From positions 1 through 33,998 of the forward strand of contig MHOB01000023.1 of assembly GCA_001821795.1 (NCBI GenBank): a DNA stretch of 33,998 nucleotides, read 5' to 3'. This document shows, one piece after another, positions 5,843 through 31,995 of the stretch (position 1 is the stretch's first letter; each line of letters starts with the position of its first letter). Below the pieces are notes generated by a model. The model was not told where the DNA came from and did no database searches. It saw only the letters and a list, made by a program, of their open reading frames with translations. The DNA is from Candidatus Ryanbacteria bacterium RIFCSPLOWO2_12_FULL_47_9c (GTDB lineage Bacteria > Patescibacteriota > Minisyncoccia > Ryanbacterales > GWA2-47-10b). A program made the position numbers and the translations under genes.

Positions 5843-5875
5843 AAAAAAAACTCCGCCGCTGGCGGAGTTTTTTTT
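5843..5875 (+). terminator. Rho-independent terminator after the pilin gene (bidirectional-looking)
   Basis: A8 run, then stem CTCCGCC (5851-5857), loop GCT, stem GGCGGAG (5861-5867), then T8 run. Confidence 0.85.
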
Positions 5876-8760: not shown

Positions 8761-12832
<4,072 letters not shown>

Positions 12833-12836
12833 AAAT

Positions 12837-13676
12837 ATGGCCGACTTAGCTAATCTTTTCCGCTTATCAAAGCTTCTTTTAATTTTCGGTCTTGCCCTTG
12901 TCCTAACTTTTTATTTCGGTTCGTATTTTCTTGGTGCATCTCTTGAAATGTTATACGGTAGCTCTTTTCTTAAATATGCAACGTTCAGTATTTTTCTTTT
13001 TTCAATAATCTGTGGCATCTCGTGGCTTATTTTTACTAATAATATAGCGACTACCATACAAAGAGCTCGCTTTGCAATGATCGGCCTTGTCTTTCTCGGG
13101 GTTATGGGTGTTACTCTGATCTTATTTATCCAACCCCTATGTTATGATTCGAATTTGATTTGTGGCAGTGTTTCTATTTACTTTCGGGAAGACCTATCTT
13201 CACGCGAAATTTTTAGCTTCATTCGGGAGAGGGGTTTATCTGTCACGGGTCAAGCAAAAAATCAGTTTTTCGAATTATCAAAGCCGGAAGCATACTTTGA
13301 TGTACAGATTCCAGTTGAGCTAGAAAGAGAAGAGCAACACTCTTTTTTAAATAGTATTTTTGCTAATCTTACGAAAGAACAATCTCTAGATTATTGTTCT
13401 AGTATTGACGATGATCCCTTTGGATATCGTATTAAACCTTCCCAAGTGAGAATCGAGTGCATTTTTAAAAATGACACGCCATTGTCTGAAATTAATGCGT
13501 TTCAGTCAAGATATCCTGAACTCAAGTTTGGTGGCGATGATCATATCTATATTTTTAATTATATTCGCATCCGGGTGCCAGTTGGGACCGAAAACGCGTG
13601 GGTAAAAAAACTGGAACGCCACCCCGAAGTTATTGATGCAACGGCGCCGTATACTCCATCATTACCTTCAATATGA
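12837..13676 (+). CDS. Hypothetical membrane protein (about 4 TM helices plus a C-terminal soluble region), low-GC
   Basis: ATG 12837 lies 4 nt after the gyrB stop, and the track extension (12717) overlaps gyrB. The N-terminal half is hydrophobic (LLLIFGLALVLTFYF, FSIFLFSIICGISWLIF, MIGLVFLGVMGVTLILFI). I recognise no family. Confidence 0.6.
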   Translation: MADLANLFRLSKLLLIFGLALVLTFYFGSYFLGASLEMLYGSSFLKYATFSIFLFSIICGISWLIFTNNIATTIQRARFAMIGLVFLGVMGVTLILFIQPLCYDSNLICGSVSIYFREDLSSREIFSFIRERGLSVTGQAKNQFFELSKPEAYFDVQIPVELEREEQHSFLNSIFANLTKEQSLDYCSSIDDDPFGYRIKPSQVRIECIFKNDTPLSEINAFQSRYPELKFGGDDHIYIFNYIRIRVPVGTENAWVKKLERHPEVIDATAPYTPSLPSI

Positions 13677-13699
13677 ATACGGTAGTGACACTACCGTAT
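13677..13699. repeat. Perfect hairpin ATACGGTAGTG-A-CACTACCGTAT (left copy of a REP-like palindrome)
   Basis: The 11-nt arms are exact reverse complements. It starts 1 nt after the upstream stop codon. The same core recurs at 14396-14414. Confidence 0.9.
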
Positions 13700-13713
13700 A
13701 ATCTCTCTATACT
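13685..13713 (+). promoter_or_regulatory. Putative promoter of the Y1 transposase gene, with the -35 embedded in the left hairpin
   Basis: GTGACA (13685-13690), 17 nt spacer, TATACT (13708-13713), then 6 nt to GTG 13720. A second -10-like TATAAT lies at 13697-13702. Confidence 0.4.
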
Positions 13714-13719
13714 GGATAT

Positions 13720-14388
13720 GTGGCTTGTGTAAACGGCGAGTATTACCATATTGTTAATCGCGGCGTTGAAGGACGAACCATATTTACATCCACAAGGGAT
13801 TTTAATCGTTTTAAACGCGGGCTTCTTTTGTTTAACACAACGGGTTTTACCGAGCTCCGCACGGTTTCAGAGCGGGTTTTTCTTCAAAAGCTAGCATCGG
13901 GAAAGGTCAGTCGTCTTGTGGATGTTATAGCGTACTGTCTGCTCGGTAATCACTTTCATCTTTTTGTCAGACAAAATGTCGATAAGGGCGTGGAAACCTT
14001 TTTACGAAAGCTCCTTGGTGGTTATACAAGGTTTTTTAATATTGTAAAAAAGAGAAGAGGTGTTCTCTTTCAGTCACATTCGCGGATTATCCATGTGAAT
14101 CACGAAACATATTTTGATCATGTTCCGCGATATATTATTTTGAATTCCCTCGATTCAGTTGATATACGATGGAGGGTACACGGCGTGACTAACACTCAAA
14201 AAATCAAAAAAATTCTTATTGAATATCCTTACTCGAGTTTTAACGGCATGATCCAGCGGGGACTTGATCCAATACTCTCTGACGACCTTATAGGTGAAGT
14301 ACTCGATCGAAAAAATTTTCTTAACGATTTACTTGCATGGAGTTCAGAAAATTATATTGACGCAAAACCCGTTCTTATTGAACCGTAA
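13720..14388 (+). CDS. IS200/IS605-superfamily Y1 (HUH) transposase, RAYT-like (REP-associated tyrosine transposase type)
   Basis: N-terminal YHIVNRGVEGRTIF. HUH motif in LLGNHFHLFV. The catalytic-Tyr helix motif is PRYIILNS (compare RYIHxNP). At 222 aa it is longer than classical IS200 TnpA and fits the RAYT class. It has a GTG start. Confidence 0.8.
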   Translation: MACVNGEYYHIVNRGVEGRTIFTSTRDFNRFKRGLLLFNTTGFTELRTVSERVFLQKLASGKVSRLVDVIAYCLLGNHFHLFVRQNVDKGVETFLRKLLGGYTRFFNIVKKRRGVLFQSHSRIIHVNHETYFDHVPRYIILNSLDSVDIRWRVHGVTNTQKIKKILIEYPYSSFNGMIQRGLDPILSDDLIGEVLDRKNFLNDLLAWSSENYIDAKPVLIEP

Positions 14389-14393
14389 CACGC

Positions 14394-14437
14394 ATACGGT
14401 AGTGTCACTACCGTGTTTTTACACTACCGTGTTTTTA
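14394..14437. repeat. Right copy of the hairpin (ACGGTAGTG-T-CACTACCGT) plus a tandem 16-nt duplication of its 3' arm
   Basis: The core at 14396-14414 matches the left copy except for the loop base. CACTACCGTGTTTTTA occurs twice in tandem (14406-14421 and 14422-14437). The T-runs would also allow it to act as a terminator. Confidence 0.85.
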
Positions 14438-14525: not shown

Positions 14526-14553
14526 TTGCATAGCAATTACTCTGTGGTATAAT
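14526..14553 (+). promoter_or_regulatory. Putative extended -10 promoter for secE-nusG-rplK
   Basis: TTGCAT (14526-14531), 16 nt spacer, TGG-TATAAT (-10 at 14548-14553). This is 42 nt upstream of the secE ATG. Confidence 0.5.
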
Positions 14554-14595
14554 GGTATTCAATAGGCCCGCGAGGGCTTTTAAGATTACTTACAA

Positions 14596-24830: not shown

Positions 24831-27800
24831 ATGGATACACGAGTAGTAGATTTTAAATCAATTGTTCTCCGGCTTGCCTCCCCGCAAGATATTCTGTCAT
24901 GGTCTCACGGAGAAGTTACTAAACCCGAGACGATCAACTATCGCACCCAACGGCCTGAACGCGATGGCCTTTTTTGCGAGAAAATTTTTGGACCGACAAA
25001 AGATTTCGAGTGTTATTGCGGGAAATACCGGCGCGTCCGTTATAAGGGAATCGTTTGTGATAAGTGTGGCGTTGAAGTTACAAAATCACAGGTTCGCCGT
25101 GACCGGATGGGGCATATTGAACTTGCCGCTCCTGTTTCTCATATCTGGTTTGTGCGTTCGGTGCCCTCACGCTCCGGGCTTTTGCTCGACTTGTCGGTAG
25201 TTGATCTTGAACGCGTGATATATTTTGCGGGTTACATTATCACGTCCATTGACGAGAACGCGCGCGCGGAAGCGCTTCGTGATATTGAGCGTGAATTTAA
25301 GGCAAAATCAAAAACAACAAAAGATAAATCGGCCCTCAAAGAGGGCGCAGACCGCGCAAAAAGCGAGTTAAAGAATCTGAAAAAAGGAGCGGTCCTCTCC
25401 GAAGTTGATTACCATCGGTTCGCACTTAAATACGCAAACGTGTTTCATGCAGGTACGGGCGCGGAGACTCTTCGGAAAATTTGTGAAGAGATCGATCTTA
25501 CGGTTATGTGGAAAGACCTTGAACGCGAGTTGGAACACGCGACTCCGCTTGGCAAAAAAAGAATTCTCGCCCGGCTCCGGACCGTAAGAGCAATGGAGCG
25601 TTCGCATGTTCGGCCGGAATGGATGTTTTTAACTACTATCCCCGTGATTCCTCCTGATCTCCGGCCGATGGTGCCGCTTGATGGGGGCAGGCACGCGAGT
25701 TCGGATGTCAACGATCTTTACCGCCGGGTAATTAACCGAAACAATCGTCTCAAGCGCCTTTATGAATTGAAAGCGCCGGAGGTTATTACTCGAAACGAGA
25801 AGCGGATGTTGCAGGAAGCGGTTGATGCTCTTATTGACAACTCAATCAAAAGAGGCGCGGCGCCCGTTGCGTCTCAAGCGCAGCGCAGGCCACTTCGATC
25901 GCTTGCTGATATGCTCAAGGGAAAGCAAGGGCGGTTTCGGCAGAATTTGCTCGGGAAAAGAGTTGACTATTCAGGCCGGTCGGTTATCGTGGTTGGTCCT
26001 TCGCTCAAACTCCATCAGTGCGGTCTTCCAAAACATATGGCGCTTGAGCTTTTTAAGCCGTTTGTAATCCACAAGATCATTGAGCGCGAACTCGCGCACA
26101 ATATTCGCGGCGCCTCGCGCCTTATTGACGAAGCGACTCCGGAGATTTGGGCTATTCTTGAAGAAGTTATCAAAGGAAAGTATGTTCTTCTGAACCGCGC
26201 GCCAACTCTTCATCGTCTTGGCATTCAGGCGTTTCAGCCGCTTCTGATTGAGGGTAATGCCATTCAGCTCCATCCGCTCGTGTGTCTTGCATTCAATGCG
26301 GATTTTGATGGCGACCAAATGGCCGTGCATGTGCCGTTGACCGATGAAGCCCAAAAAGAAGCCGCTGAAATTATTGCGTCGACAAAAAATATTCTCAAAC
26401 CAGGGTCGGGTGAAGCGATTGTTGTGCCCACACAAGACATGGTGCTCGGGTGCTATTGGCTTACCAATATTGACAACCAGGGAAAAGGAGTAGGAAAAAT
26501 CTTCGCGTCGAAAAACGAAGCAATACTTGCATATGATGTTGGCGATGTCGGTCTTCGCGCACCCGTGAAAGTACTCTCACATATGGGAGAAGGCAAACCG
26601 CAGTATCTCGAAACAACGGTCGGGCGCATTATTTTTAATATTGCGATACCGAATGATTTTGGTTTTATCAATGAACGGTTGGGCAAAAAACAGCTCGCAA
26701 AACTCATTGGTAAACTTCTCCGAAAATATGGCCAAGCCGAGCTTCCTGATATTCTCGATAAGATCAAGGATATCGGTTTTACCTATGTGACAAAATCTGG
26801 TATCAGCTGGGGAATGGATGACCTTCAGGTCCCCGAAAAGAAGGGAGACGTCATCGAACAGGCGCGCAAAGATATTGCGGTCATCGATGATCAGTTTGAG
26901 AATGGACTTCTGACCGAGGACGAGCGATACAAAAAAGTTATTGAGGTGTGGTCGCGTGCCAAACACGAGATCGCACAGCTCATTCCCGGCTCGCTTGATC
27001 CCGATGGACCTGTTTTTACGATGGTGGATGCGTCGGCACGCGGTTCCTGGGACTCCGTTCTCCAGATGGCCGGCATGAAGGGTCTCCTGCGGAACCCGTC
27101 CGGTAGGATCATTGAGTTGCCTGTTCTTTCAAACTATAAAGAAGGGTTTACCGTACTCGAGTATTTTATTTCGACGCATGGCGCTCGAAAGGGTACTGCT
27201 GACACCGCGCTCAAGACTGCGGTTGCTGGTTATCTCACACGGCGCCTCGTTGATGTTGCGCAGGATGTTGTGGTATCGGAGTCAGATTGCGGCACTGACG
27301 AAGGTATTACGATTCGTAAATCTGATTTGCAGGAGTTTAGCGCTTCTCTGGGACAACGGGTATTTGGCCGCACACTTGTCTCTGATGTAAAACACCCCGA
27401 AACAAAGCGCGTTCTTTTTAAGAAAGGACATCTTTTAACTGTTGAAGAAGCTGATTTGATCGAGGAAATCGGTGTCGAGAACATTATTGTTCGATCACCG
27501 ATTGCTTGCAGTACTCTGCGCGGCATATGCCAGACGTGTTATGGGTATGATCTTGGTTCTAATACTCCTGTCAAGCTTGGGGAGGCGGTTGGTATTGTGG
27601 CGGCGCAAGCGATTGGGGAGCCAGGTACACAACTTACCATGAAGACGTTTCATATGGGTGGTGTTGCTGGCGCGTCGGGTGATATTACGCTTGGTCTCCC
27701 CCGCGTTGAGGAAATTTTCGAGGTCCGTACGCCAAAAAACAAAGCGGTGATCGCAACGTTGGCGGGTACCATTGTCGATATTGAAGAAGAAGATAGGGAA

Positions 27801-28400
27801 AGAAAAATTATTATTCTTGGTAAGAATAATAAGAAAGCCGAATGCATTATTCCTTTCGGACGCATGATGATCGTAAAAAAAGGCGATTTGGTGGAGTTGG
27901 GAGACAGTCTCTCTGATGGGCCCGTGGACATCAATGAACTCTACACGCAAGCCGGACATGAGCGGGTACATAACTACGTGCTCAACGAAGTGAGCAAAGT
28001 TTATACTCTCCAAGGTGCGACAATCAATAATAAGCACATTGAAGTGATGATCCGCCAGATGTTTTCTCGCGTACGCATCAGGGAAAACGGCGATACGTTA
28101 TTTGCTATTGGTGAAGTTGTTGAACACGCTGTTTTTGTTGATGAGAATGAACGCGTTGAGAAAAAGGGAGGGGAAAAAGCGCAAGCGAGTGAGCTTCTCA
28201 TGGGAATAACGCGTGTTGCGCTCACAACAGATAGTTTTCTCTCCGCTGCGTCGTTTATGGAAACAGGGCGTGTTCTTATCCGGGCATCGCTTGAGGGACG
28301 CGAAGATAAACTCCTGGGTCTTAAAGAAAATGTTATCATTGGTCATCTTATCCCCGCGGGGACTGGTTTTAACAAAGACAAAGACAGAGAAGAATTCTAA
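24831..28400 (+). CDS. rpoC: DNA-directed RNA polymerase subunit beta'
   Basis: 1189 aa. It has the zinc-binding [23 protein letters not shown], the catalytic [12 protein letters not shown], and the trigger loop and bridge helix blocks. Confidence 0.98.
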
Positions 28401-30943: not shown

Positions 30944-31963
30944 ATGCCAAAGAAAGAAAAGAAAATGGATGACGCTGTTACGAGAGGAACGGAGGCGATA
31001 AATCTTGCAATGCAGGCGATTCAGTCAAAGTATGGGGAGGGATCGCTCATGCGTCTTGGCCATATGCCGCGCGTCCCCATTGAGGCGATCTCAACCGGTT
31101 CTTTTTCGCTTGATTGGGCGCTTGGAATTGGAGGCATTCCGCGGGGGCGCGTTGTTGAAATCTTTGGACCGGAGTCGTCAGGGAAAACGACACTTTCGCT
31201 CCATGTCATCCGCGAATGCCAGAAAAAAGGCGGGGTTGCCGCGTTTATTGACGCAGAGCACGCGCTTGACCCCGAATATGCAAAAAAGATTGGAGTGAAT
31301 CTCAACGAGCTCCTCATTTCACAGCCCGATACGGGCGAACAAGCGCTTGAGATCGTAGAGAGTTTGGTGCGATCAGGCGGTATGAGTGTCATTGTGATTG
31401 ATTCGGTAGCTGCGCTTACTCCCCGAGCCGAGATCGAAGGGGATATGGGACAACAGCACATAGGTTTGCAGGCGCGCCTCATGAGCCACGCTCTTCGGAA
31501 ATTAACATCTATTGTGGCGAAAACGAAGACAACGGTTATATTCATAAACCAGATTCGCATGCAGATTGGGGTAATGTTTGGCAATCCGGAGACGACGCCG
31601 GGCGGCAAGGCCTTGAAATTTTACTCATCGGTACGCATTGATGTGCGCCGCCTTGCGCAAATCAAGAAAGGAGAAGAGGTGGTGGGGAGCCGCACGAAGG
31701 CAAAAGTAGTTAAGAACAAAGTTGCGCCGCCTTTTCGAATCGCCGAATTTGATATTATGTACAACGAGGGTATCTCGTACGAGGCGGATCTTATAAATCT
31801 TGGGGCAAAATTGGGTGTAGTGAAAAAAAACGGGGCGTCATACAGTTTCCAAAATATAAAACTTGGCCACGGTTATGACGCCGCGCGAATCTTTTTGAAA
31901 GAAAACAAAAAAGAATGTAAAGAGTTAGAGAAAGCACTGCGTGAGGAATTGGAAAAGGTATAA
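30944..31963 (+). CDS. recA: Recombinase RecA
   Basis: [11 protein letters not shown], Walker [23 protein letters not shown], and the L2 region [22 protein letters not shown]. Confidence 0.97.
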
Positions 31964-31972
31964 TGAATTCAA

Positions 31973-31995
31973 ACTTAGACATCGGATGTCTAAGT
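31973..31995 (+). terminator. Perfect 11-bp-arm palindrome after recA (possible terminator hairpin, no T-tract)
   Basis: ACTTAGACATC-G-GATGTCTAAGT, 9 nt after the recA stop. It is followed by GATACTTATAC rather than a U-run. Confidence 0.3.

What the first reader, a model, noticed from the sequence alone, without database searches (positions are those of the whole stretch)
13677..14437. HUH/Y1 transposase bracketed by near-identical hairpins: a REPtron-like or IS200-like minimal element
ATACGGTAGTG-A-CACTACCGTAT (13677-13699) and ATACGGTAGTG-T-CACTACCGTGT (14394-14416) flank a 222-aa gene with the HUH motif (NHFHLF) and the catalytic-Tyr motif (RYIILN). Subterminal hairpins recognised as ssDNA by TnpA are the defining feature of IS200/IS605 elements and of RAYT/REP systems. 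The arms contain GTAG/CTAC, reminiscent of the conserved GTAG tetranucleotide of enterobacterial REPs. The left hairpin overlaps the -35-like GTGACA of the gene's putative promoter, so TnpA binding or hairpin extrusion could autoregulate expression. Both hairpins also sit exactly at gene ends and may double as terminators.
Basis: partly seen in the sequence, partly recalled or inferred. Interest (0 to 1): 0.65.

Follow-up and report, generated by a model that had tools for sequence, protein, structure and literature searches.

The report
Resident hairpin-flanked tyrosine (HUH) transposase gene
A small groundwater bacterium carries, fixed between two housekeeping genes, a transposase-like DNA-cutting gene bracketed by two copies of its own DNA hairpin; it is a long-resident relative of the "REP-associated" transposases rather than a jumping gene, and DNA rearrangements in wild populations start next to both hairpins.

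Summary
Two near-identical palindromes (13677-13699, 14394-16) bracket a 222-aa ORF (13720-14388) with intact HUH (H78, H80) and Tyr (Y138, N142) motifs. An AlphaFold model (pLDDT 92.6) matches E. coli RAYT bound to a REP hairpin best.

It is not an IS200-like mobile element. Orthologues (64-68% aa identity) sit in the same gyrB-secE slot in at least three related lineages. They diverge in step with gyrB and nusG, are under purifying selection (dN/dS 0.13), and appear single-copy.

Their hairpins have a different sequence. Five of ten stem pairs changed on both sides, in both copies at once, so hairpin and protein co-evolve. By motifs the protein fits TnpAY1 subclass 2.1 (Group 1 RAYT, "TIRYT"), so this is a TIRtron/REPtron-like locus in a Patescibacteria (probably Ca. 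Ryanbacteria) genome. The GTAG resemblance is coincidental.

Two things are new here:
- In four metagenomes a second, unrelated 685-nt allele fills the slot between the gyrB stop and the 5' foot of the left hairpin.
- Duplication and deletion variants start 5 nt (7 nt from the perfect stem) past the right hairpin.

Genome-wide dispersal of the hairpin could not be tested.

Verdict: a new member of a known kind, of moderate interest.

The parts
13677..13699 (.). Left palindrome/hairpin ATACGGTAGTG-A-CACTACCGTAT (10-bp stem, 3-nt loop as ssDNA). It starts 1 nt after the stop codon of the upstream ORF and ends 20 nt before the Y1 start codon.
   Evidence: A hairpin occupies the same position in orthologues L001, L007, L029 and L030.
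13685..13713 (+). Promoter-like site GTGACA-17-TATACT. The -35 lies inside the hairpin. The -10 ends 6 nt before the GTG start, which suggests a leaderless or near-leaderless mRNA (inferred).
   Evidence: 10 of 12 matches. TATACT or TACACT is conserved 6 nt before the ATG in L001, L007 and L029. The -35 is not conserved.
13720..14388 (+). Y1 HUH endonuclease/transposase-like gene, 222 aa. HUH is H78-F-H80, the catalytic Tyr is Y138, the metal-ligand position is N142, and the SS tail motif is S172-S173.
14394..14416 (.). Right palindrome/hairpin ATACGGTAGTG-T-CACTACCGTGT. It starts 5 nt after the Y1 stop codon and is followed by a T5 run.
14406..14437 (+). Tandem duplication (2 x 16 nt, CACTACCGTGTTTTTA) that begins at the first base of the 3' arm. 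It is polymorphic. The single-unit form is in run X9 and contig L028. A scaffold gap and two contig ends fall exactly at 14421|14422, and one assembly (L031) lacks 75 nt from that point.
12833..13675 (+). Variable slot between the gyrB stop (12830-12832) and the 5' foot of the left hairpin. In the window it holds a 279-aa membrane-protein ORF (12837-13676). In four metagenomes a minority allele of 685 unrelated nucleotides occupies the same slot.
   Evidence: the tool reports 'skips 843, 685 letters between'. The allele depths add up to the depth of the Y1 contig.

Best explanation
The gene encodes a catalytically intact single-tyrosine HUH (Y1) single-strand-DNA endonuclease of the RAYT/TIRYT branch. 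By motifs it is closest to TnpAY1 subclass 2.1, which equals Group 1 RAYT. It is a long-term, vertically inherited resident of the gyrB-secE locus of a Patescibacteria (probably Ca. Ryanbacteria) genome. The two palindromes are its cognate DNA hairpins, so the locus is a REPtron/TIRtron-type arrangement and not an insertion sequence.

Likely mechanism, inferred from IS608, ISDra2 and E. coli RAYT:
- The dimer binds the hairpin when it is extruded in single-stranded DNA.
- H78, H80 and N142 hold the metal ion, and Y138 cuts beside the hairpin foot, forming a 5'-phosphotyrosine link.
- The enzyme can then rejoin strands.

Repeated cutting and copying between sites would explain three observations. 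All copies at a locus carry the same lineage-specific sequence. Stems change by paired substitutions in both copies at once. Insertion, replacement, duplication and deletion variants in natural populations start at the outer side of each hairpin.

Because the left hairpin covers the -35 position of the gene's own promoter, binding probably also autoregulates expression.

Shown here: the fold and active-site residues, synteny, purifying selection, hairpin covariation, and the polymorphic junctions. Inferred: ssDNA binding, the cleavage positions, the causal link between enzyme and rearrangements, and autoregulation.
For: Fold and active site:
- AF2 model pLDDT 92.6. Top Foldseek hit is 4ER8_A, RAYT with a REP hairpin (E 5e-6), followed by ISDra2 and IS608 TnpA.
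- H78, H80, Y138 and N142 are invariant in 70 relatives.
- 69 of 70 relatives hit Pfam Y1_Tnp and 70 of 70 hit NCBIfam REP_Tyr_transpos at E<1e-3.
- The family motifs NHFH, FQ, YIHLNP and SS match subclass 2.1 in Table 1 of PMC6006769.

Residency:
- The gyrB-Y1-secE-nusG order is the same in L001-L006, L007 and L029.
- Y1 amino-acid identity (64-66% and 78%) tracks gyrB (78% and 89%) and nusG (90% and 92%). dN/dS is 0.13, and dS is saturated between the window and the others.
- One Logan contig at flank depth runs through the whole unit.
- There is no second copy in the window, one weak hit in 72,556 plasmids, and none in phages.

Cognate hairpins:
- Nine lineages each have their own palindrome 13-33 nt upstream of the start and, in most, at the stop.
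- Between the window type and the L001/L007/L029/L030 type, 5 of 10 stem pairs changed on both sides and 98.8% of cells stay paired.
- The stem is identical between L001 and L007 although dS is about 0.9-1.6.

Junctions:
- The alternative 685-nt allele is bounded by the gyrB stop and base 13676 in runs X5, X6, X7 and X8.
- Duplication and deletion variants, and assembly breaks, fall at 14421|14422.
- An independent 11-nt duplication with the same geometry occurs in L007.
Against: - There is no biochemical evidence. DNA binding and cleavage are inferred only from homologues with about 15% sequence identity.
- The window protein itself is below the Pfam (16.1 versus 23 bits) and NCBIfam (19.8 versus 80 bits) cut-offs, and its Y motif is YIILNS rather than Y---NP.
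- The hairpins are perfect, symmetric palindromes. The known substrates of Y1 enzymes are imperfect hairpins, and symmetry fits a dimeric dsDNA-binding protein equally well.
- No dispersed hairpin copies were seen in the 34-kb window or in about 10-kb flanks of relatives, other than one extra copy beside the L007 locus. A role in spreading repeats is therefore unsupported.
- The polymorphic junctions could arise from ordinary homologous recombination between strains, or from slippage at a repeat, without any enzyme.
- L007 keeps three perfect hairpins although its Y1 gene carries an in-frame TAG at codon 45.
- The Y1 gene is 5-10 GC points poorer than its neighbours in all seven lineages checked. 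This may reflect low expression but is also typical of accessory DNA.
Confidence: 0.65

Rival explanations
1. The palindromes are ordinary double-stranded regulatory sites. They would be operators bound by a dimer, possibly through the helical C-terminal third of the Y1 protein itself, together with transcript 3'-end stem-loops. No DNA is cut or moved, and the Y1 protein acts as an autoregulated DNA-binding factor or has another substrate.
For: - The hairpins are perfect two-fold symmetric palindromes.
- The left copy covers the -35 position of the only promoter-like site.
- Each copy sits within 0-10 nt of a stop codon.
- The right copy in the window is followed by a T5 run.
- Subclass 2.1 proteins often carry HTH-like C-terminal domains (PMC6006769).
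- No dispersed copies were seen.
Against: - The T-run is absent after orthologous hairpins.
- In five paralogous lineages a further copy lies in frame inside the coding sequence about 150-190 nt from the start. That looks like an insertion or copying event, not an operator.
- Both or all copies at a locus switch sequence together, which needs copying between sites.
- The catalytic HUH and Tyr residues are invariant across a family with at least 7,992 protein clusters at E<=1e-10.
- Structural variants start exactly at the hairpins.
- No HTH family was detected in the C-terminal part.
Confidence: 0.2
2. It is an autonomous IS200/IS605-type insertion sequence of about 745-760 bp. It would move as a single-stranded circle, with the two hairpins acting as its left and right ends.
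For: - Its size resembles IS200 (my own knowledge, not checked here), and a single Y1 gene lies between subterminal hairpins.
- Population variants begin just outside both hairpins, as expected for element ends.
- The gene is AT-richer than its neighbours.
- A paralogue in another Ryanbacteria genome has the same hairpin type next to it.
Against: - The site is occupied in relatives with saturated synonymous divergence, and the gene tree matches gyrB and nusG.
- dN/dS is 0.13.
- The element is single-copy, and no joint that skips it was found in the eight metagenome runs whose contigs were laid across it.
- The Y motif has N, not the Y---Q of subclass 1.1. The protein is 222 aa with a tail domain, against about 150 aa.
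- The ends are identical perfect palindromes rather than distinct imperfect LE and RE hairpins.
- It is virtually absent from plasmids and phages.
Confidence: 0.05
3. The hairpins mark a gene-cassette exchange site. The Y1 enzyme would insert or swap neighbouring genes at the hairpin foot, in an integron-like platform that uses an HUH enzyme instead of a tyrosine recombinase.
For: - Two unrelated alleles fill the gyrB-hairpin slot within identical flanks, and both ORFs end in a stop codon completed by the shared base or bases at the hairpin foot.
- The slot is empty in L007 and L029, holds a 108-aa ORF in L001, and another ORF in L030.
- In L007 a NUDIX gene lies between two hairpin copies.
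Against: - Only one slot was observed, and the alternative allele's sequence could not be retrieved.
- The cassette in the window is not flanked by a second hairpin, whereas the L007 NUDIX gene is, so there is no consistent cassette structure.
- The GIY-YIG insertion in L029 is not next to a hairpin.
- Homologous recombination between strains through the conserved gyrB and Y1 flanks explains the sharp boundaries equally well.
Confidence: 0.1

Closest known systems
TIRYT / 'TIRtron' (Di Nocera et al. 2013, PMC3733652), equal to TnpAY1 subclass 2.1 (Quentin et al. 2018, PMC6006769) and to Group 1 RAYT (Bertels et al. 2017, PMC5581495)
   Same: - The family motifs NH[YF]H, FQ and Y[IV]HLNP are present, with a conserved-serine tail after the core, and the length is about 220-240 aa.
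- The gene is low-copy and chromosomal.
- It is flanked by inverted repeats that can be wholly self-complementary and often have no dispersed family in the genome.
   Different: - Quentin et al. found no REP-like hairpins next to subclass 2.1 genes. Here short perfect hairpins are found next to the gene in all nine lineages examined.
- The TIR motif GGGGWSAS is absent.
- No HTH or DnaA_C-like distal domain was detected.
- The host phylum (Patescibacteria) was not sampled in those studies.
- Assignment to the subclass rests on motifs, not on a tree or on the authors' HMMs.
E. coli RAYT/TnpA-REP with REP/BIME sequences (REPtron; PDB 4ER8; subclass 2.2)
   Same: - It is the best structural match.
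- It is a single-copy, vertically inherited gene flanked by its cognate palindromes.
- Protein and palindrome co-evolve.
   Different: - There is no 5' GT[AG]G tetranucleotide at the hairpin foot.
- The stems are perfect rather than imperfect or bulged.
- There is no evidence for tens to hundreds of dispersed copies.
- The score is far below the NCBIfam equivalog cut-off (19.8 versus 80 bits), and the protein has an extra C-terminal helical region of about 70 aa.
IS200/IS605 TnpA (IS608, ISDra2, IS200)
   Same: - It has the HUH/Y1 fold, with a Tyr and a polar metal ligand four residues apart.
- The gene is bracketed by hairpins in a unit of about 750 bp.
   Different: - It has Y---N rather than Y---Q, and is 222 aa against about 150 aa.
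- Its two ends are identical perfect palindromes.
- It is syntenic and single-copy, with no sign of mobility of the unit.
Subclass 2.4 RAYTs with REP sequences inserted in frame in their own gene (PMC6006769)
   Same: Paralogues of the window gene (L012/L026, L018, L021, L024, L025) carry an in-frame copy of their flanking palindrome inside the coding sequence.
   Different: - The insertion lies before the HUH motif (aA-b2 linker, about codon 50-63). In subclass 2.4 it lies between HuH and Y.
- The window gene and its closest orthologues have no internal copy.

Membership tests
Y1 HUH transposase superfamily (TnpAY1; Pfam PF01797) | HUH metal-binding motif on a beta-strand | tested here: met
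   N77-H78-F79-H80. H78 and H80 are invariant in 70 relatives, and the motif lies on strand E78-85 of the model.
Y1 HUH transposase superfamily (TnpAY1; Pfam PF01797) | Single catalytic Tyr on a helix, with a polar ligand (Q or N) four residues downstream | tested here: met
   Y138 and N142 are invariant and lie on helix H134-146.
Y1 HUH transposase superfamily (TnpAY1; Pfam PF01797) | TnpA/RAYT fold | tested here: met
   The Foldseek top hits are 4ER8_A (E 5e-6, TM 0.67 on the target), then ISDra2, IS608 and IS200 TnpA, all at probability 1.00.
Y1 HUH transposase superfamily (TnpAY1; Pfam PF01797) | Score above the Pfam gathering threshold | tested here: not met
   The window protein scores 16.1 bits against a cut-off of 23. 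69 of 70 relatives match at E<1e-3.
RAYT / TnpA-REP with REP or REPIN sequences (REPtron) | Class 2 Y motif Y---NP | tested here: inconclusive
   The family consensus is YIHLNP. The window protein has YIILNS, with N kept and P replaced by S.
RAYT / TnpA-REP with REP or REPIN sequences (REPtron) | Single-copy gene, vertically inherited | tested here: met
   The gene is syntenic at gyrB-secE in L001-L007 and L029. Its divergence tracks the housekeeping genes and dN/dS is 0.13. One contig at flank depth runs through it.
RAYT / TnpA-REP with REP or REPIN sequences (REPtron) | Gene flanked by its cognate palindromes | tested here: met
RAYT / TnpA-REP with REP or REPIN sequences (REPtron) | Conserved 5' GT[AG]G tetranucleotide at the foot of the palindrome | tested here: not met
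   GTAG lies inside the stem of the window hairpin and is absent from the orthologous hairpins.
RAYT / TnpA-REP with REP or REPIN sequences (REPtron) | Palindromes dispersed in many copies through the genome | tested here: inconclusive
   - There are only the two copies in 34 kb, and none in +/-10-kb flanks of relatives except one extra copy in L007.
- The source genome is not in genome contigs.
- The metagenome scan missed a known positive contig.
- Read laying cannot see matches of only 21 nt.
RAYT / TnpA-REP with REP or REPIN sequences (REPtron) | NCBIfam NF047646 equivalog cut-off | tested here: not met
   19.8 bits against a cut-off of 80.
TnpAY1 subclass 2.1 / TIRYT (TIRtron) | Motifs NH[YF]H, FQ and Y[IV]HLNP, with a conserved-serine tail and a length of about 238 aa | tested here: met
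   - The family consensus is NHFHLL, LFQG, YIHLNP and SSY, with lengths of 215-234 aa, which matches Table 1 of PMC6006769.
- The window protein has NHFH, FQ, YIILNS and YSS.
- This is a motif-level test only. No phylogeny was built and the authors' HMMs were not used.
TnpAY1 subclass 2.1 / TIRYT (TIRtron) | Gene flanked by terminal inverted repeats | tested here: met
   The arms 13676-13699 and 14394-14417 are 24 nt long and 96% complementary.
TnpAY1 subclass 2.1 / TIRYT (TIRtron) | GGGGWSAS motif in the TIRs (majority type) | tested here: not met
   The motif is absent from both hairpin types. The paper notes that other TIRs lack it too.
TnpAY1 subclass 2.1 / TIRYT (TIRtron) | Distal C-terminal HTH or DnaA_C-like domain | tested here: inconclusive
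   There is no Pfam hit beyond Y1_Tnp. The model shows six short helices at residues 151-218, which were not searched separately.
IS200/IS605 insertion sequence | Several near-identical copies per genome, patchy presence, empty sites | tested here: not met
IS200/IS605 insertion sequence | Subclass 1.1 signature: Y---Q, core-only protein of about 150 aa | tested here: not met
   The motif is Y138---N142 and the protein is 222 aa with a tail domain.
IS200/IS605 insertion sequence | Distinct imperfect subterminal hairpins at the left and right ends | tested here: not met
   Both ends carry the same perfect palindrome.

The most novel reading that the evidence does not exclude
The resident Y1 enzyme is still active on the two hairpins at its own locus. 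It makes their outer feet hot spots where neighbouring DNA is swapped, duplicated or deleted. This would be a hairpin-guided, HUH-driven local gene-exchange site, functionally analogous to an integron attachment site. It would be conserved across a very large Patescibacteria family in which protein and hairpin specificity co-evolve. The same family also plants a copy of the hairpin inside the enzyme's own coding sequence.
Probability: 0.12. Interest if true: 0.8.

Novelty: new member of a known kind. Interest (0 to 1): 0.45.

Why it matters
What RAYT-type domesticated transposases do for their hosts is still unknown. Subclass 2.1 / Group 1, the largest RAYT group in both classifications (second only to IS200-type subclass 1.1 in the whole TnpAY1 family), has been described as lacking REP-like hairpins.

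This locus shows that in Patescibacteria, with genomes I take to be roughly 1 Mb (my own knowledge), such genes are kept for very long periods. The family is large: at least 7,992 protein clusters at E<=1e-10. The genes are flanked by short perfect hairpins that co-vary with the protein.

That offers two practical handles:
- A natural set of enzyme-hairpin pairs from which a recognition code could be read. This is of interest for HUH-tag and ssDNA tools.
- Wild-population structural variants whose junctions lie at the hairpins, which make a concrete, testable prediction of where the enzyme cuts.

If the link between enzyme and rearrangements fails, the locus is simply another TIRtron.

Tried and rejected
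- **Genome-contig scan for the hairpin.** It returned only 3 hits, in Actinobacteria and a Bdellovibrionales MAG. About 9 are expected by chance for 18 fixed bases in 596 Gb.
- **Metagenome-contig scan.** It returned 7 loci but not the window's own locus, although a JGI contig carrying it exists (L038). The scan is therefore not exhaustive, and its silence about dispersed copies means little.
- **Read laying as a genome-wide hairpin counter.** The control failed.
- **Viral-contig search with the family alignment.** No relatives were found.
- **PDB sequence searches with the protein and with a 70-sequence profile.** Nothing was found. Only fold comparison links the protein to solved structures.
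- **RNA runs.** None holds the locus, so the promoter and leaderless start remain inferences.
- **Literature searches combining RAYT, IS200 or palindromes with CPR/Patescibacteria.** No paper on this was found.
- **Rfam.** No RNA family was found at the hairpins.
- **Rejected: GTAG as a REP hallmark.** It is inside the stem and absent in orthologues.
- **Rejected: hairpins as conserved intrinsic terminators.** There is no T-run in orthologues.
- **Rejected: recent horizontal arrival of the gene inferred from its low GC.** The same offset is seen in all seven lineages with conserved synteny.
- **Not recovered: the sequence of the 685-nt alternative allele.** Only its first and last 30 nt are known, and they match nothing in the window or in the fetched loci.
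Full report
**1. The observation**

ATACGGTAGTG-A-CACTACCGTAT is at 13677-13699 and ATACGGTAGTG-T-CACTACCGTGT at 14394-14416.
- The 19-nt core occurs exactly twice in the window and never in 100 shuffles.
- Perfect palindromes with stems of 10 bp or more are 20-fold over-represented in the window, 4 against 0.2 expected.
- As single-stranded DNA each copy folds into a 10-bp stem with a 3-nt loop (-8.8 kcal/mol, z = -4.8).
- The loop letter is flipped between the copies, so they match slightly better as inverted repeats (24 nt, 96%) than as direct repeats.
It begins at the first base of the right hairpin's 3' arm.
- Between the hairpins lies one ORF, 13720-14388 (+), with a GTG start and 222 aa.
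- The surroundings are pheS/pheT, gyrB (10796-12832), a 279-aa membrane-protein ORF (12837-13676), then the unit, then secE, nusG, rplK and tmk, all on the + strand.

**2. The protein**

- On its own the protein scores weakly: Pfam Y1_Tnp 16.1 bits (cut-off 23) and NCBIfam REP_Tyr_transpos 19.8 bits (cut-off 80). It has no sequence match in the PDB.
- It nevertheless belongs to a very large family.
  - 5,977 representatives at 50% identity match at E<=1e-3.
  - The few members that carry an organism name are mostly named as Patescibacteria MAGs (Ca. Ryanbacteria, Ca. Lloydbacteria, 'Patescibacteria group'); one is labelled Flavobacterium sp..
- In a 70-sequence alignment H78 and H80 (HUH), Y138, N142 and S173 are invariant.
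- 69 of 70 members hit Y1_Tnp and 70 of 70 hit REP_Tyr_transpos at E<1e-3.
- An AlphaFold2 model is confident (pLDDT 92.6, pTM 0.90). Its best PDB match is 4ER8, the E. coli REP-associated tyrosine transposase bound to a REP hairpin (E 5e-6). ISDra2, IS608 and IS200 TnpA follow.
- The family motifs NHFH, FQ, YIHLNP and a conserved SS in the tail, with a length of about 220-235 aa, coincide with subclass 2.1 of the TnpAY1 classification of Quentin et al. (PMC6006769, Table 1).
  - That subclass equals Group 1 RAYT of Bertels et al. and most TIRYTs of Di Nocera et al.
  - This is a motif-level assignment, not a phylogeny.
  - The window protein deviates in the Y motif (YIILNS).

**3. Not an insertion sequence**

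- Proteins 64-68% identical to the window protein were found on five further sets of contigs. In three of them (L001-L006, L007, L029) the gene sits in the same place, after gyrB and before secE-nusG-rplK.
- Amino-acid identities are as follows.

| Gene | Window vs L001/L007 | L001 vs L007 |
|---|---|---|
| Y1 | 64-66% | 78% |
| gyrB | 78% | 89% |
| nusG | 90% | 92% |

- Synonymous sites are saturated between the window and the others, and dN/dS for Y1 between L001 and L007 is 0.13.
- In the metagenomes that contain the organism, a single contig at the depth of the flanks runs through the whole unit. No contig skips it.
- The window has no second copy.
- tblastn finds one weak hit in 72,556 plasmids and none in 50,697 phage records.
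- Two more distant paralogues also show conserved synteny: recA-ftsK-...-Y1 in L024 and L025.
- These are the properties of a domesticated RAYT-type gene, not of IS200.
- One caveat is that the gene is 5-10 GC points poorer than its neighbours. This holds in all seven lineages checked, so it is a property of the gene family rather than a sign of recent arrival.

**4. The hairpins belong to the gene and co-evolve with it**

- In L001, L007, L029 and L030 the gene is bracketed at the same positions by a different palindrome, TCCCGCTGGT-NNN-ACCAGCGGGA.
  - The upstream copy ends 18-20 nt before the start codon.
  - The downstream copy starts 2-11 nt after the stop.
- Aligned to the window type, 5 of the 10 stem pairs are unchanged and 5 are changed on both sides. 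98.8% of cells remain paired, and no slid control comes close.
- The change is present in both copies of each locus. The stems are identical between L001 and L007 although neutral sites have diverged by about 1 substitution per site.
- The sequence is therefore under selection, and copies are homogenised within a locus.
- More distant paralogues each have yet another palindrome.

| Locus | Palindrome |
|---|---|
| L012/L026 | CCAAGGT-TCC-ACCTTGG |
| L018 | GGAGATC-C-GATCTCC |
| L021 | TTGGGAATC-C-GATTCCCAA |
| L024 | TCCAAAGGC-W-GCCTTTGGA |
| L025 | a 24-bp stem |

- In all five of these lineages an extra copy lies in frame inside the coding sequence, 149-188 nt after the start. That is the linker before the HUH strand.
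- In-gene REP copies are known only for subclass 2.4, and there they lie between HuH and Y.
- The window clade lacks the internal copy.
- The GTAG in the window stem is not conserved and is not at the foot, so the resemblance to enterobacterial REPs is coincidental.

**5. Dispersal**

- In the 34-kb window, and in roughly 120 kb of flanks of relatives, the palindromes occur only at the Y1 genes. The one exception is a third copy in L007 behind a NUDIX gene inserted between Y1 and secE.
- The window's hairpin type also occurs once in another Ryanbacteria genome. There it lies 58 nt upstream of the own-type hairpin of a 35%-identical paralogue.
- A genome-wide count for the window's organism was not possible, because every route failed.
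  - The genome is not in genome contigs.
  - The metagenome scan missed a contig known to carry the locus.
  - Laying contigs does not detect matches of only 21 nt.
- High-copy REP-like spread is not supported, but low-copy dispersal is not excluded.

**6. Rearrangement junctions at both hairpins in natural populations**

This is the most informative new result.

- *Left side.*
  - In runs X5, X7 and X8 a 745-nt contig begins with the last 30 nt of gyrB (12803-12832) and ends with 13676-13705. The bases 13676-13705 are the hairpin plus 6 nt. Between those ends lie 685 nt that match nothing in the window.
  - In X6 a 454-nt contig shows the same junction at the hairpin.
  - Its depth adds to that of the window allele to give the depth of the shared Y1 contig.

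| Run | Alternative allele | Window allele | Shared Y1 contig |
|---|---|---|---|
| X5 | 8.7 | 48.8 | 55.6 |
| X6 | 6.1 | 16.3 | 23.6 |
| X7 | 11.6 | 59 | 66.5 |
| X8 | 16.3 | 51.7 | 61.1 |

  - So 15-27% of the population carries a different gene in the slot, which starts MKILSFIVK and ends HITEAKCPQ*.
  - The slot runs from the gyrB stop codon to the base before the hairpin. In both alleles the ORF's stop codon is completed by the shared A13676, and in the alternative allele also by A13677.
  - The same slot is empty in L007 and L029, where the gyrB stop abuts the hairpin. It holds a 108-aa ORF in L001.
- *Right side.*
  - The 16-nt duplication is polymorphic. The single-unit form is in X9 and L028.
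  - One assembly (L031) lacks 75 nt starting at the same point.
  - One scaffold has its gap, and two long contigs end, exactly at 14421|14422.
  - L007 has an independent 11-nt duplication with the same geometry at its outermost hairpin.
- *Caveats.* The dup/non-dup bubble alone can explain the contig ends. L031 is an older assembly with a split gyrB. Sharp boundaries can also result from homologous recombination through conserved flanks.

**7. Mechanism**

- I commit to the following. This is a resident RAYT/TIRYT-type Y1 enzyme whose substrates are the hairpins at its own locus. It binds them in single-stranded DNA and cuts at their feet through Y138, with H78, H80 and N142 holding the metal.
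- Cutting and rejoining would account for the concerted turnover of the copies and for the junctions at 13676|13677 and 14421|14422.
- The left hairpin overlaps the -35 position of the only promoter-like site (GTGACA-17-TATACT). The -10 box 6 nt before the start codon is conserved in orthologues, so autoregulation is likely.
- The fold, the residues, residency, covariation and the junctions are shown. Binding, cleavage, causality and regulation are inferred.
- The main rival is that the perfectly symmetric palindromes are duplex operators or 3'-end stem-loops with no DNA processing.
  - It is favoured by the symmetry and by the lack of dispersed copies.
  - It is disfavoured by the in-gene copies, the concerted switches, the invariant catalytic residues and the junctions.
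- An awkward fact for my reading is that L007 keeps three perfect hairpins although its Y1 gene has an in-frame TAG at codon 45.

**8. Comparison and novelty**

- Functionally the locus is a REPtron/TIRtron. By motifs the protein is a subclass 2.1 / Group 1 RAYT / TIRYT.
- It fails the defining features of classical REP systems, namely the GT[AG]G foot and a dispersed family. It also fails those of IS200/IS605.
- Di Nocera et al. already described TIRYT genes flanked by self-complementary repeats with or without dispersed families. I therefore file it as a new member of a known kind.
- It has these unreported aspects:
  - the Patescibacteria host range and the scale of the family;
  - short perfect hairpins next to a subclass said to lack them;
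  - paired-substitution turnover of the stems;
  - in-gene copies ahead of the HUH motif in relatives;
  - population-level junctions at the hairpins.
- No paper on this in Patescibacteria was found in the library.

Noticed in passing
window 12833-13675: In four groundwater or soil metagenome runs, 15-27% of the population carries an unrelated 685-nt sequence instead of the 843 nt of the window. It lies between the gyrB stop codon and the base before the left hairpin. Its ORF starts MKILSFIVK and ends HITEAKCPQ*. Its full sequence could not be retrieved.
   Followed up: partly
window 14406-14437: The 16-nt tandem duplication of the right hairpin's 3' arm plus tail is polymorphic. It is absent in run X9 and contig L028. 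Contigs L039 and L040 end at 14421|14422, scaffold L034 has its gap there, and L031 lacks 75 nt from there.
   Followed up: yes
window 31973-31995: An orphan perfect palindrome, ACTTAGACATC-G-GATGTCTAAGT (11-bp arms), lies 9 nt after the stop of ORF 30944-31963 and upstream of a TTGACA...TATAAT promoter-like site. Its centre ATC-S-GAT resembles the hairpins that flank the Y1 paralogues in L018 and L021. No Y1 gene is nearby in the window.
   Followed up: partly
window 27808-27832: An AT-rich perfect palindrome, TTATTATTCTT-GGT-AAGAATAATAA (11-bp arms), lies inside the long ORF 24831-28400, which is probably rpoC.
   Followed up: no
window 14526-14583: Upstream of secE there is a promoter-like TTGCAT-16-TGgTATAAT followed by a small stem-loop, GGCCC-GCGA-GGGC(T), and TTTTAA. 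Both are conserved in L001, L007 and L029 (ACTTGCAT..., GGCC-TACG/TGCG-GGCC TTTTAAAAA). This may be a leader or attenuator of the secE-nusG operon.
   Followed up: partly
L007 2037-2705: The orthologous Y1 gene of a Ca. Ryanbacteria MAG (GCA_016203745.1) has an in-frame TAG at codon 45 (CAG in L001). All three hairpins at the locus are nevertheless perfect. It is either a recent pseudogene or a sequencing error.
   Followed up: partly
L007 2824-3399; L029 970-1248: The interval between Y1 and secE gains genes in relatives. In L007 a NUDIX gene is bracketed by two hairpin copies. In L029 a 92-aa GIY-YIG ORF is inserted after the small stem-loop and not beside a hairpin.
   Followed up: partly
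L012 9894-9912 (= L026/L027 9874-9892): The window's hairpin type, ACGGTAGTGTCACTACCGT, occurs once in another Ryanbacteria genome (GCA_001003085.1). It lies 58 nt upstream of the own-type hairpin of a 35%-identical Y1 paralogue.
   Followed up: partly
L012 10178-10196; L018 5150-5170; L021 3371-3399; L024 10155-10179; L025 10160-10207: Paralogous Y1 genes carry an in-frame copy of their own flanking palindrome inside the coding sequence, always 149-188 nt after the start and before the HUH motif. This copy evolves in concert with the flanking copies.
   Followed up: partly
window 13720-14388 and Y1 genes of L001, L007, L029, L026, L024, L018, L021: Y1 genes are 5-10 GC points poorer than neighbouring genes in every lineage checked. 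The window's cassette ORF (GC 0.38) and the small ORF in L001 (GC 0.37) are equally AT-rich.
   Followed up: yes
contig of P0200 (no DNA held): Two Y1_Tnp genes lie 6 kb apart on one 59-kb Patescibacteria-like contig, so genomes can carry several paralogues.
   Followed up: no
L008 3550-3568; L010 2019-2037: The same 19-nt palindrome occurs in two Streptosporangiales genomes (Nonomuraea, Sphaerimonospora) with similar flanks (...TTACGGTAGTGNCACTACCGTTTT..GGCACTCTAG). It is probably an unrelated conserved operator there.
   Followed up: no
L038 (JGI contig C687J26635_10001539): This JGI contig carries the window's locus with both hairpins but was not returned by the metagenome contigs pattern scan. 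Negative results of that scan are therefore not exhaustive.
   Followed up: yes
window 5843-5875: A 15-bp perfect stem with A8 and T8 tails (AAAAAAAACTCCGCC-GCT-GGCGGAGTTTTTTTT) looks like a bidirectional intrinsic terminator.
   Followed up: no
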